Source: Pecten maximus (taxonomy: Eukaryota). From it: a stretch of DNA of 64,000 nucleotides. The DNA lies in assembly GCF_902652985.1 (NCBI RefSeq), contig NC_047026.1:39370001-39434000 (forward strand), given 5' to 3'. A program made the position numbers. Numbering within the stretch: the stretch's first letter is position 1; every line of letters begins with the position of its first letter. Positions 3,001 to 6,000 of this stretch are shown here, piece after piece.

Positions 3001-6000
3001 GTCCCACCCTACCCTCAGGTTGAGATCACCCTGTCTCACCCCACCCTCAGGTTGAGATCACCCTGTCTCACCCCACCCTCAGGTTAAGATCACCCTGTCT
3101 CACCCCCATTGGGGTGAAAGATTCTTTTAGTCTATCTGTTATGTAGAGACTTTATAAACATATGTAACTAAATTCGGTATTACATAAAAGATATACTAGT
3201 ATGCTCAGGTAAATTTTGGTTTTGTTCTTTTTAGTGTCAGAGAGCTGTAAATACCTTTACAGAGCTCTTCTTTGAATTATGCAATAATTGATGTTAAAAA
3301 TTATCACAGGAACACAGTTGGGGGAGATAGCAGTATTCGATATTCCCTCAAAGGGAACCAACGTAAACTCAAAGGACAGTTTAACAGGTGAGTTTTTATG
3401 TGTCCAAGACGTTACCTAAGTATTTTGAAAGGAATTAATTAAGCTTTCCTGCCTGAATAATTGGAATCCTTGCTAATTTCAATTCAGATAGGTTTATATT
3501 TCTCTGCAGATTAATTAGCTATATCTCAGAAATCTATATCTACATCAGAGGGACCTTGGCACCACTGTTCAGTTTTGAGACTGGTTGGATGAACAAAATA
3601 TCTGACAGGTGACCATCTTGTGTGATTTGGACAGATGAAAAGAAATTGACAATTGAGATTTTATCTAATGTTATTTTCAGAATTATTGTTGTAGGGGATA
3701 TTTATTTTATAATATTTTCTTTGTTGTTATTTGTGTTAATGTTTTTGACTGATTAAAAGATAATTTTAAATTCAGAAAATATTTGATCCAATAAAGATCA
3801 TATGATTACCGCCACCAACACCCTTCTGTGATCTCTTGTAAAACGTCTTTTGACAAGTTTCCCAAGATCTCAGCTTCACAATATTTCCTGACTTTAATGT
3901 GTTCGTATTCAAAGGTGATTGAACATGTTGTCAATTTCAGGGCATAAGCAACCAATATGTGACCTTGCTTCAGAAGACAACACGCTAGTCAGTTGTGATG
4001 AACAGGGCACCATCATTGTGTGGTCACTACGGGACACGAGTATTCGACAGCGAGAGATTATCAAGGGAACTGGGTAGATATATATCCCTTTATCCTGAAT
4101 GATTTACCCGGTAGATCGTTGTTTGTGTACTACAAGAGGTTGTATTTCTTATCTGATGTTTATAACCTCCCTGATGTTTGAGTTGCCCGATGTTAACTAC
4201 TTGTCCAATGTTTATTTTTTGCACAATGTTTATGACTCACTTGATGTTTGACATGCCTGAATTTTTATGACTTGCCCAATATTTATGACTTGACCAATGT
4301 TTATGACTTGCCCAATATTTATGACTTGACCAATGTTTAAGACTTGACGTATGTTTATGGCTTACCTGATGTTCACAACTTCCTAGAGATTTACAACTTA
4401 CTAGAACTTTAAGATCTACCTGGTGTTTAAGTCTGACCTGATGTCAACACCTACCTGATGTTTATGACTTATCTGATGATAAAAACTTACTTGATGTTTA
4501 CAACTTACCTGAGACAACTTACCTGACATTAATGACTGGTGTTCACAGGGATCCCTGCAGCTGTCTGTGTATCTGGAAGAACATTATCGTAGGAGGATTT
4601 AGTAATGGCCAGCTAAGGTTATACAGCGCTAATACAGGAAGATTGGCAGCTGCAGTCAATGCCCATGTACGCTGGGTCAACGCCCTAGACATAGCTAAAG
4701 ATAGCGGACTGGTAAGTAACGTCCACATACGCTGGGTCAACGCCCTGGACATAGCTATAGATAGCGGACTGGTAAGTAACGTCCACGTACGCTTGGTCAA
4801 CGCCCTGGACATAGCTAAAGATAGCGGACTGGTAAGTAACGTCCACATACGCTTGGTCAACGCCCTGGACATAGCTAAAGATAGCGGACTGGTAAGTAAT
4901 GTCCACATACGCTGGGTCAATGCCCTGGACATAGCTAAAGATAGCAGACTGGTAAGTAAAGCCCACGTACACTGGGTCAACGCCCTGGACATAGCTTAAG
5001 ATAGCGGACTGGTAAGTAATGCTCATGTAAGCTGGGTCAACGCCCTGGACATAGCTTAAGATAGTGTACTAGTTAATAATGTCCACATAGGTTTGGTTAC
5101 TGTAGAGGTGAACACTAATTTAGTCTTTTGTCAAGTGTAAAATGTAACAGATAATGTTAATTTATTGGACTTTTGTCATATTATCATAACACACTAACAT
5201 TGTATTTATACCACATTCATTTTTGTGTTTCAGCTGCTGTCAGTGAGTGATGACACACATGCTAGGGTCTGGAAACTGAAGCCAGGAGACAATCCTGAGG
5301 TACTGTAAACCTTATTACATTTCTAAAACAAATTATAGAATTAAAAAAAATCTATTTCTACACCAAAATAAACAATTGATTTTTATATTGATTTTTTATT
5401 ATTGATTTGTTACTATGTATATGGATGATCCTTTACTGGTAATAAACTAAATTATACTAATATCACAATATCTAAGGTTTTGAGAATATTACTGTAACAG
5501 ATTTGAAAAAATATCACATTTGATAGAATATCATAGATTTATAGAATAACACTGACTATACAGAATATCTCGGATTAATAGAATATGTCAGATTTGTAGA
5601 ATATCACAGATTTAAAGAATATGTCAGATTTATAGAATGTCACAGATTTGTAGAATATGACAGATTTATAGAATATCACAGATTTAAAAAATATGTCAGA
5701 TTTATAGAATGTCGCAGATTTGTAGAATATGTCAGATTTATATAGAATGTCACAGATTTGTTGAATATGTCAGATTTATAGAACATCACAGATTTATAGA
5801 ATGTTTGAGATTGAAAGAATGTTTCAGATTTATGTACCTTAGTAATTTCAGATTTATAGAATATGTCAGTGACATATTCTATAAATATAGAATATTTCAC
5901 TTTTATGCAATTTCATTTTTATGTAATTTCAGATTTATAGAATATCTCAGATTTATACATTCATAGAATATCTCTGATTTTTAGAATAATAGAAATTACA

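What the first reader, a model, noticed from the sequence alone, without database searches (positions are those of the whole stretch)
4656..5095. WDR54: four in-frame alternative donors could add 1-4 copies of a 20-aa segment
The 60-bp unit is a multiple of 3, stop-free until TAA at 4997, and each copy ends in CTG|GTAAGT like the native donor. Splicing from 4772, 4832, 4892 or 4952 to acceptor 5234 keeps the frame and inserts VSNVH[IV]R[WL]VNALDIA[KI]DS[GR]L 1-4 times within a WD40 blade. Only the 5012 donor yields a premature stop. This could give length-variable isoforms, or show new coding repeats forming.
Basis: partly seen in the sequence, partly recalled or inferred. Interest (0 to 1): 0.65.

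Follow-up and report, generated by a model that had tools for sequence, protein, structure and literature searches.

The report
Splice-donor minisatellite in scallop WDR54 intron
A 60-base tandem repeat in a scallop WDR54 gene copies the end of one exon together with its splice signal, a known kind of repeat in which the extra splice signals usually stay unused, so length-variable proteins are possible but nothing seen here supports them.

Summary
A 60-bp array of 7.0 copies lies at 4668-5089. Six identical CTG|GTAAGTAA donors sit 60 nt apart, four intronic copies are open in the exon's frame, and TAA appears at 4997. The window is scallop (Pecten maximus or a very near relative), not human.

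The array is a minisatellite whose first unit spans the exon/intron boundary. This kind is known from human F7, IFI6, CBS, LMNB2 and PDGF, and from amphioxus "mirages" (PMC1557585, PMC3087553).

Nothing supports coding use:
- The reference protein joins 4711 to 5234.
- 0 of 30 aligned WDR54 proteins has a 20-aa insert.
- The open copies differ by 2 synonymous and 4 non-synonymous changes, as neutral drift predicts.
- The insert would fall between two adjacent strands of a propeller blade.

Five more arrays in this window begin at a donor, in DDX41 and an RMND5A-like gene. Periods of 55, 40 and 22 bp would break the frame.

No RNA data could be checked. I built no joined isoform.

The parts
4549..4711 (+). 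WDR54 exon (residues 212-265 of the Pecten maximus reference protein P0001). Its last ~54 nt are the founding copy of the repeat.
   Evidence: Pfam PF21031, E 1.7e-11. tblastn of P0001 matches 54 of 54 exon residues. The acceptor and donor can be read.
4658..4717 (+). Inferred founding unit: 54 nt of exon plus the first 6 nt of the intron (GTAAGT)
   Evidence: Column-by-column comparison of the units. Copies 5 and 6 keep exon-like bases in columns 7-16.
4668..5089 (+). 60-bp tandem array as called by Tandem Repeats Finder (7.0 copies, 91% matches, no indels)
4712..4951 (+). Four young intronic copies (U1-U4). They are open in the exon's frame, each ends in CTG|GTAAGTAA, and they differ from one another at 1-5 of 60 positions.
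4952..5071 (+). Two older copies (U5, U6) that share an AAA-to-TAA change (stops at 4997-4999 and 5057-5059). U5 still ends in an intact donor at 5011/5012. The junction after U6 has decayed to CTA|GTTAAT.
5072..5098 (+). Decayed partial eighth copy at the 3' edge of the array
   Evidence: matches the consensus only in its first ~30 columns
5099..5233 (+). Unique tail of the intron, ending in the acceptor ...tttcag
   Evidence: 144 nt of the intron lie outside the array
5234..5299 (+). Next WDR54 exon (LLSVSDDTHARVWKLKPGDNPE). It is joined to 4711 in the reference protein.
39463..42837 (+). Sister array. DDX41 exon ends GCAGAAG|GTATGA at 39465. 51-bp unit, 65.9 copies, 57 further exact copies of the donor 9-mer.
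47372..49609 (+). Sister array. The unit is the last ~36 nt of a DDX41 exon (..[12 protein letters not shown]) plus 19 nt of intron. 55 bp, 40.6 copies, 37 further exact TCA|GTAAGT.
51717..52944 (+). Sister array. The unit is the last 12 nt of a DDX41 exon plus 18 nt of intron. 30 bp, 40.5 copies, 28 further exact CCT|GTAAGT.
19696..22369 (-). Sister array. A 22-bp unit starts at intron +1 after the RMND5A-like exon end ACG|GTACGG (22370). 121.7 copies.
15960..18357 (-). Sister array. A 40-bp unit carrying CAG|GTAAAT starts at the RMND5A-like exon end GTCAG|GTACAG (18358). 59.6 copies.

Best explanation
This is an intronic minisatellite whose first unit spans the exon/intron boundary of a scallop WDR54 exon. 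It is of the "mirage" or F7-IVS7 type.

Inferred origin: a ~60-bp piece (about 54 nt of exon end plus GTAAGT) was duplicated in tandem and then amplified by slippage or unequal exchange. Each copy therefore carries the donor. The copies nearest the exon (U1-U4) are the youngest and most alike. The copies at the 3' edge have decayed and picked up stops.

Inferred splicing: the most upstream donor (4711/4712) is used and the rest of the array is removed as intron. The protein is then the ordinary 330-residue propeller.

The in-frame, stop-free state of four copies is a by-product of a 60-bp period and of youth, not of selection.

Shown: the array, the identical donors, gene identity, the reference product, the neutral substitution pattern and the sister arrays. 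Inferred: which donor the cell uses, and how the array arose.
For: 1. Array anatomy and six identical donors.
2. P0001, the Pecten maximus WDR54-like protein, reads ..DIAKDSGL|LLSVSDD.., that is 4711 joined to 5234. The Ylistrum and Mizuhopecten orthologues have no insert either. These were 3 of 3 proteins found among 242 candidates when the read-through frame was the query.
3. In 30 aligned WDR54 proteins the junction admits at most 2-3 extra residues, in 2 of 30. H250, D272 and W278 are invariant.
4. U1-U4 differ at 6 sites, 2 synonymous and 4 non-synonymous, including W to L at the Trp that all three scallop proteins keep. The neutral expectation is 23% synonymous.
5. The model of P0001 (pLDDT 92.7, pTM 0.91) puts the junction at the start of strand 265-270. 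The unit covers the end of one strand, the loop with His250, strand 254-260 and the turn. An insert would therefore separate two neighbouring strands of one blade.
6. Five other arrays in this window begin at a donor. Three lie in DDX41, with 57, 37 and 28 further exact donor copies. Three of the five have periods (55, 40, 22 bp) that are not multiples of 3. The exons of these genes are nevertheless intact.
7. Precedent. In human F7 IVS7, identical pseudo-donors, in-frame ones included, stay silent through 5'-to-3' scanning. LMNB2 and PDGF use only the authentic site (PMC1557585: abstract, Introduction and Discussion read). Amphioxus mirages do not disturb splicing (PMC3087553 section 16; PMC3902484 passage).
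8. No RNA structure masks or favours any donor: MFE -131.7 kcal/mol, z +1.98.
Against: - No transcript data for this species could be consulted, so donor use is inferred.
- P0001 is an automatic "LOW QUALITY PROTEIN" model.
- The donors match the CAG|GTAAGT consensus at 8 of 9 positions. In F7, only pseudo-sites that matched the consensus perfectly shifted splicing.
- In IFI6 and CBS the two pseudo-sites nearest the exon are used as well (PMC1557585, Introduction).
- That paper also notes an older duplicated-donor experiment with the opposite outcome.
- All precedents are chordate. None is from a mollusc.
Confidence: 0.75

Rival explanations
1. Leaky use. The first donor dominates, but the nearest one or two pseudo-donors (4771/4772, 4831/4832) are used in a small, detectable share of transcripts. 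This would give mRNAs coding for 20 or 40 extra residues that escape nonsense-mediated decay. The products would probably be misfolded noise.
For: The donors are identical and strong. The extended exons of 223 and 283 nt are not unusually long. IFI6 and CBS use their two nearest pseudo-sites (PMC1557585, Introduction). No masking RNA structure was found.
Against: At similar spacings, F7 (37 bp), PDGF (81 bp) and LMNB2 (100 bp) use only the authentic site (PMC1557585). No protein with an insert was found.
Confidence: 0.15
2. The copies are nascent coding repeats, or regulated length-variable isoforms, kept open by selection.
For: The period is a multiple of 3 and four copies are open only in the exon's frame. 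The other two frames are closed.
Against: - The substitution pattern is neutral, and it includes W to L, G to R and K to I.
- P(no stop by chance) is 0.87.
- 0 of 30 family members has an insert of this size.
- The insert would split adjacent strands of a blade.
- Sister arrays with frame-breaking periods show that the process ignores the reading frame.
Confidence: 0.03
3. Damaging allele. The donor nearest the acceptor (5011/5012) wins, the TAA at 4997 enters the mRNA, and the transcript is degraded. Taken with the frameshift in the last exon, the gene would be decaying in this genome.
For: PMC1557585 (Discussion) cites one older duplicated-donor experiment that gave the opposite result to the others it cites, which used the first copy. 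The window has a 1-nt frameshift in the last WDR54 exon.
Against: All other exons are intact and match the conserved orthologues. The frame after the shift still encodes the conserved C-terminus down to the orthologous stop, which suggests a sequencing error or a very recent change. DDX41 carries far larger donor arrays and its exons are intact.
Confidence: 0.05
4. Assembly artefact. The array or its copy number is a mis-assembly.
For: Repeats are prone to mis-assembly. A likely 1-nt error lies 1.6 kb downstream.
Against: The copies carry distinct substitutions with an ordered gradient of decay. The array is only 422 bp long. 37 other arrays in the window show the same style.
Confidence: 0.02

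Closest known systems
Human F7 intron 7 VNTR (37-bp monomer; Borensztajn et al. 2006, PMC1557585)
   Same: The first monomer spans the exon/intron boundary. The authentic donor is followed by identical pseudo-donors, some of them in frame. The array is short (5-9 copies in F7, 7 here).
   Different: F7 takes 4 bp of exon and 33 bp of intron, whereas here it is ~54 nt of exon and 6 nt of intron, so each copy looks like protein-coding sequence. The F7 donor (UGG|gugggu) is weak, while this one matches the consensus at 8 of 9 positions. Donor use was tested by minigenes for F7 and is untested here.
Human IFI6 (6-16) and CBS boundary minisatellites, as summarised in PMC1557585 (Introduction)
   Same: Reiterated donors at an exon end. 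They show that the nearest pseudo-donors can be used and can add in-frame residues.
   Different: The IFI6 unit is, from my own recall and not from any call, about 12 nt, with 25 pseudo-sites. Here the unit is 60 nt with 5 pseudo-sites, and use of the extra sites is unknown.
Amphioxus "mirages" (Adh3, TnC, globins, PGBD5; PMC3087553 section 16, PMC3902484 passage; the original Canestro et al. 2002 paper is not held)
   Same: Minisatellite-like tandem duplications of exon/intron boundaries, recurring in many genes of one invertebrate genome. Inner copies are homogenised and edge copies decay. Splicing was reported as normal.
   Different: Mirages are reported at both 5' and 3' boundaries. In this window 6 arrays sit at donors and 0 at acceptors. 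The host here is a mollusc. One search for minisatellite + scallop + intron + splice site found 0 papers.
Intron gain by internal tandem duplication (Rogers' model, as cited in PMC3087553)
   Same: A tandem duplication that carries a splice signal is removed from the mRNA by splicing.
   Different: No new intron is created here. The copies extend an existing intron.

Membership tests
Boundary-spanning intronic minisatellite (mirage / F7-IVS7 type) | Head-to-tail array of several similar monomers | tested here: met
   Period 60, 7.0 copies, 91% matches, score 662. The core occurs 7 times at exact 60-nt spacing.
Boundary-spanning intronic minisatellite (mirage / F7-IVS7 type) | The first monomer holds both exon and intron bases | tested here: met
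   Exon end 4658-4711 plus GTAAGT 4712-4717 aligns with every later unit. The exon border is fixed by P0001.
Boundary-spanning intronic minisatellite (mirage / F7-IVS7 type) | The authentic donor sequence is reiterated in the following monomers | tested here: met
   5 further exact CTG|GTAAGT 9-mers
Boundary-spanning intronic minisatellite (mirage / F7-IVS7 type) | Mature mRNA uses the outermost (authentic) site | not testable with these tools
   No RNA data. Indirect evidence only: the reference protein lacks any insert.
Boundary-spanning intronic minisatellite (mirage / F7-IVS7 type) | Copy number varies among alleles | not testable with these tools
   Only one haplotype is in hand, and no scallop genome collection was available.
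WDR54 (Pfam PF21031) | Sequence matches the family profile above its curated cut-off | tested here: met
   A single exon gives 44.3 bits against a cut-off of 26.6, at profile positions 214-265 of 334. A second exon gives a weaker hit, E 6.3e-4.
WDR54 (Pfam PF21031) | Beta-propeller fold | tested here: met
   Model of the reference protein P0001: pLDDT 92.7, pTM 0.91, 28 strands. This was done on the database protein, not on a model joined by me.
Alternative tandem 5' splice sites that give protein isoforms | Two or more donors compatible with one acceptor and with the frame | tested here: met
   Donors at 4771, 4831, 4891 and 4951 add 20, 40, 60 or 80 codons without a stop.
Alternative tandem 5' splice sites that give protein isoforms | Transcripts or proteins that show use of more than one donor | not testable with these tools
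   0 of 3 scallop proteins found with the read-through query has an insert.
Coding internal repeat under selection | Copies show purifying selection | tested here: not met
   2 synonymous and 4 non-synonymous variable sites among U1-U4, against a neutral expectation of 23% synonymous. Power is low.
Coding internal repeat under selection | The repeat is present in proteins of the family | tested here: not met
   0 of 30 aligned WDR54 proteins has a 20-aa insert. 2 of 30 have 2-3 extra residues at the site.

The most novel reading that the evidence does not exclude
Donor-anchored minisatellites may be a systematic, undescribed feature of scallop genes: a molluscan counterpart of amphioxus mirages, but biased towards 5' splice sites. 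In this one window, 6 of 23 introns in three neighbouring genes have one, and none reaches an acceptor. That could point to a mutational process tied to the 5' splice site, or to strict first-donor selection that makes donor copies harmless and acceptor copies lethal. In the WDR54 case, which is the only one with several open in-frame copies, the nearest pseudo-donor could be used at a low level and give a 20-residue ladder of isoforms.
Probability: 0.3. Interest if true: 0.6.

Novelty: new member of a known kind. Interest (0 to 1): 0.35.

Why it matters
Taken alone, the WDR54 array is one more example of a known curiosity and probably does not change the protein.

Its value is as a natural test of how a spliceosome picks one of several identical donors. 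In WDR54 the four in-frame wrong choices would give stable mRNAs that are easy to detect. In DDX41, 28 to 57 exact decoys follow the true site.

If the density seen here (6 of 23 introns) holds across the genome, scallops would join amphioxus as a second lineage rich in boundary-spanning repeats. The bias to donors could then help to separate mutational from selective explanations.

Such arrays also mislead gene prediction. Through unequal exchange they could move variants such as W253L into the exon.

Tried and rejected
- Pfam on the 22-residue exon 5234-5299 gave no hit at E up to 10, because it is too short.
- The minus-strand frames opened by the repeat (4543-4995 and 4685-5068) gave no family above cut-off. 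The only row was PF21648 at 18.2 bits against a cut-off of 27, so I do not read them as a gene.
- Rfam at gathering thresholds over the whole window gave 0 matches.
- Masking or exposure of donors by RNA structure is rejected: z +1.98, and 99 of 100 shuffles fold at least as well.
- The unit is not a dispersed repeat. All 7 core matches lie inside the array.
- The original mirage paper (PMC117041) is not held. I cite it only through PMC3087553.
- Literature searches gave 0 papers for scallop + minisatellite + intron + splice site, nothing relevant for WDR54 + alternative splicing + isoform (7 listings, human cancer and general work), and no closer precedent from a broader search on tandem repeat + splice donor (listings only).
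- A shuffle test gave 6 antisense-donor motifs in intron 4074-4548 against 0.065 expected. I discount it because an array multiplies a single motif.
- Joined spliced models and isoforms were neither built, searched nor folded. Exons were searched one at a time, and the database protein P0001 stood in for the canonical product.
- Not available: scallop genome or RNA-seq collections, metagenome contigs and viral contigs (closed), and paper supplements (closed). Additional files 4-7 of PMC3087553 were therefore not seen.

Full report
**What is there.**
The region holds a clean 60-bp tandem array at 4668-5089: 7.0 copies, 91% matches, no indels, score 662. Cut in register with the splice donor, the first unit (4652-4711) is the end of an exon. 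It is followed by four intronic units that stay open in the exon's frame, at 4712-4771, 4772-4831, 4832-4891 and 4892-4951. Two further units share an AAA-to-TAA change, giving stops at 4997 and 5057. A decayed partial unit ends near 5098.

The string CTG|GTAAGTAA is identical at six junctions, from 4711/12 to 5011/12. The seventh junction has decayed to CTA|GTTAAT. A 22-nt core of the unit occurs seven times at exact 60-nt spacing and nowhere else in the window, with none expected by chance. One refinement is that similarity between exon and repeat starts near 4658. The founding unit was thus about 54 nt of exon plus the intron's GTAAGT.

**Whose gene.**
The window is not human. I searched exons one at a time, and I built, searched and folded no joined coding sequence or isoform.
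- Exon 4550-4711 alone matches Pfam WDR54 (PF21031) with E 1.7e-11 and 44.3 bits against a cut-off of 26.6.
- The contiguous read-through frame 4550-4996, searched against longer proteins, found 3 proteins among 242 candidates. They are WDR54-like proteins of the scallops Pecten maximus (P0001, 330 aa, "LOW QUALITY PROTEIN"), Ylistrum balloti and Mizuhopecten yessoensis.
- P0001 reproduces the window's exon peptides, including an odd stretch that arises only from the window's shifted frame in the last exon. It was therefore very probably predicted from this same sequence.
- P0001 reads ..DIAKDSGL|LLSVSDD.., that is donor 4711 joined to acceptor 5234. The two orthologues have no insert either.

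**Is the open frame meaningful?**
A unit copied from coding sequence is open by descent, and a 60-bp period keeps the frame.
- U1-U4 are the youngest copies, differing at 1-5 of 60 positions. U5, U6 and the partial copy are progressively more diverged.
- U1-U4 vary at six sites, 2 synonymous and 4 non-synonymous. The changes include W to L at the Trp that all three scallop proteins keep, G to R and K to I.
- For this unit, 23% of possible substitutions are synonymous and only 4 of 180 create a stop. The chance of no stop in six random changes is therefore 0.87.
- So there is no sign of selection on the copies, although six sites give little power.

**Would the protein tolerate it?**
I searched the Mizuhopecten protein against 1.84 billion representatives. 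There were 60 hits at E up to 1e-30, and 150 were listed. I aligned 27 of those 150 with the three scallop proteins. I chose full-length hits with a single matched stretch and left out partial and multi-domain hits.
- At the junction, 2 of 30 proteins have 2-3 extra residues and none has an insert of about 20 residues.
- H250, D272 and W278 are invariant.
- An AlphaFold model of P0001 built with that alignment is confident (pLDDT 92.7, pTM 0.91) and has 28 strands, which fits seven four-stranded blades. Strands lie at 243-248, 254-260, 265-270 and 274-281.
- The exon junction (L265|L266) is the first residue of strand 265-270.
- The 20-residue unit equals residues 246-265: the end of one strand, the loop with His250, strand 254-260 and the turn.

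Each inserted copy would therefore place an extra strand-like piece between two neighbouring antiparallel strands. I infer that this is disruptive unless the piece loops out. I did not fold the isoforms themselves.

**Context changes the picture.**
Tandem arrays cover 25,989 of the 64,000 bases (40.6%), in 37 non-redundant arrays. Reference proteins of Argopecten DDX41 (P0004) and Mizuhopecten RMD5-homolog-A-like (P0124) map 10 and 8 donors in the window. WDR54 adds 5, giving 23 donors in all.

Five further arrays begin at a donor:

| Gene | Array | Strand | Period | Copies | How the unit starts |
|---|---|---|---|---|---|
| DDX41 | 39463-42837 | + | 51 bp | 65.9 | at the donor AAG\|GTATGA |
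| DDX41 | 47372-49609 | + | 55 bp | 40.6 | last ~36 nt of the exon encoding ..[12 protein letters not shown] plus 19 nt of intron |
| DDX41 | 51717-52944 | + | 30 bp | 40.5 | last 12 exon nt plus 18 intron nt |
| RMND5A-like | 22369-19696 | - | 22 bp | 121.7 | at intron +1 |
| RMND5A-like | 18357-15960 | - | 40 bp | 59.6 | at the exon end; the unit carries CAG\|GTAAAT |

These are read. The three DDX41 arrays hold 57, 37 and 28 further exact copies of the authentic donor 9-mer.

Of 23 introns, 14 hold an array. In 6 of them the array starts at or before intron +1, and in none does it reach the acceptor. The nearest array ends lie 21-33 nt upstream of the acceptor.
- If arrays were placed uniformly in their introns, 0.28 such cases are expected (0 of 200,000 simulations reached 6).
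- Under a more generous null, a first duplication is seeded uniformly in the short non-array part of the intron. This gives 2.31 expected cases and P = 0.010.
- The 6:0 split between donors and acceptors has a two-sided P of 0.031.
- The excess is real but modest under the fairer null, and it comes from only three neighbouring genes.

Three of the five sister arrays have periods that break the frame, yet the exons of these conserved genes are intact. I infer that this species' splicing ignores downstream donor copies.

**What is known.**
This architecture is already described.
- Borensztajn et al. 2006 (PMC1557585; I read the abstract, Introduction and Discussion) studied the human F7 intron 7 VNTR. 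Its first 37-bp monomer spans the exon boundary. Its identical pseudo-donors are functional but silent, including in-frame ones, and the most upstream site is chosen by 5'-to-3' scanning.
- Their Introduction lists the same layout in IFI6 (6-16) and CBS, where the two nearest pseudo-sites are also used. It lists it too in LMNB2 and PDGF, where only the authentic site is used.
- In amphioxus, such boundary duplications are called "mirages". They are reported in Adh3, TnC, globin and PGBD5 genes, at both 5' and 3' boundaries, without disturbing splicing (PMC3087553 section 16; PMC3902484 passage).
- One search combining minisatellite, scallop, intron and splice site found no paper. That is a single search of an open-access library, not proof that nothing is in print.

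**Mechanism and rivals.**
The most likely account (0.75) is a neutral intronic minisatellite that was seeded by duplication of the exon/intron junction, with the first donor used.

The main rival (0.15) is leaky use of the nearest pseudo-donors, as in IFI6 and CBS. Such transcripts would escape nonsense-mediated decay because the copies are open.

Three rivals are minor: regulated isoforms or nascent coding repeats (0.03), preference for the distal donor with a premature stop (0.05), and mis-assembly (0.02).

RNA folding gives no reason to favour any donor (z +1.98). The minus-strand frames and Rfam gave nothing.

**Limits.**
- No scallop RNA or genome collection was available.
- Supplements were closed.
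- The original mirage paper is not held.
- Donor use is therefore inferred from an automatic gene model, from sister loci and from chordate precedents.

**Verdict.**
This is a new member of a known kind, of modest interest in itself. The recurrence of donor-anchored arrays in this scallop region is the part worth following up.

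Noticed in passing
39463-42837, 47372-49609, 51717-52944 (+); 19696-22369, 15960-18357 (-): Five more minisatellites begin exactly at a splice donor, in DDX41 and an RMND5A-like gene. They hold up to 57 further exact donor copies. In total 6 of 23 mapped introns have such an array, and no array reaches an acceptor.
   Followed up: partly
6580-6610: The last WDR54 exon has one extra base near ATGGGGATTC. This shifts the frame to a stop 11 codons later. The other frame still encodes the conserved C-terminus FCVTGYDSSDLVFYIKN and its stop. It is either a likely sequencing error or a very recent change, and it probably explains the "LOW QUALITY PROTEIN" tag.
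   Followed up: partly
1-64000: 40.6% of the window (25,989 bases) lies in 37 tandem arrays with periods of 10-372 bp. Several exceed 2 kb, so most long introns here are long because of one array.
   Followed up: partly
4074-4548: The intron upstream of the repeat-bearing exon holds an 18-bp array with the antisense of a consensus donor (ACTTACCTG, 6 hits with at most 1 mismatch). In the RNA this could pair with the repeated donors downstream. Because an array multiplies a single motif, it may be chance.
   Followed up: partly
43960-45937: A 63-bp array of 30.9 copies carrying AAG|GTATGT starts right after an acceptor-like ...ttgcttcag plus 17 nt (GAATTAGACAAGTAAAG). It may be a boundary repeat of an unannotated small exon in DDX41 intron 4. 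That stretch is absent from the Argopecten protein.
   Followed up: no
4526-4548, 43376-43398, 52944-52975, 13509-13537: Several arrays stop 21-33 nt before the acceptor, as if the branch-point and pyrimidine region were protected from repeat spread.
   Followed up: no
1-6652 (+) and 13060-23946 (-): WDR54 and the RMND5A-like gene lie tail to tail. Their Mizuhopecten orthologues are both recorded on a contig of the same length (150,590), which suggests conserved linkage.
   Followed up: no
27828-28892 (+); 62503-62787 (+): A 355-codon frame without introns matches a fatty-acid desaturase domain (PF00487, E 2.3e-14). A separate frame matches an SNRNP27 exon (PF08648, E 1.9e-5).
   Followed up: no
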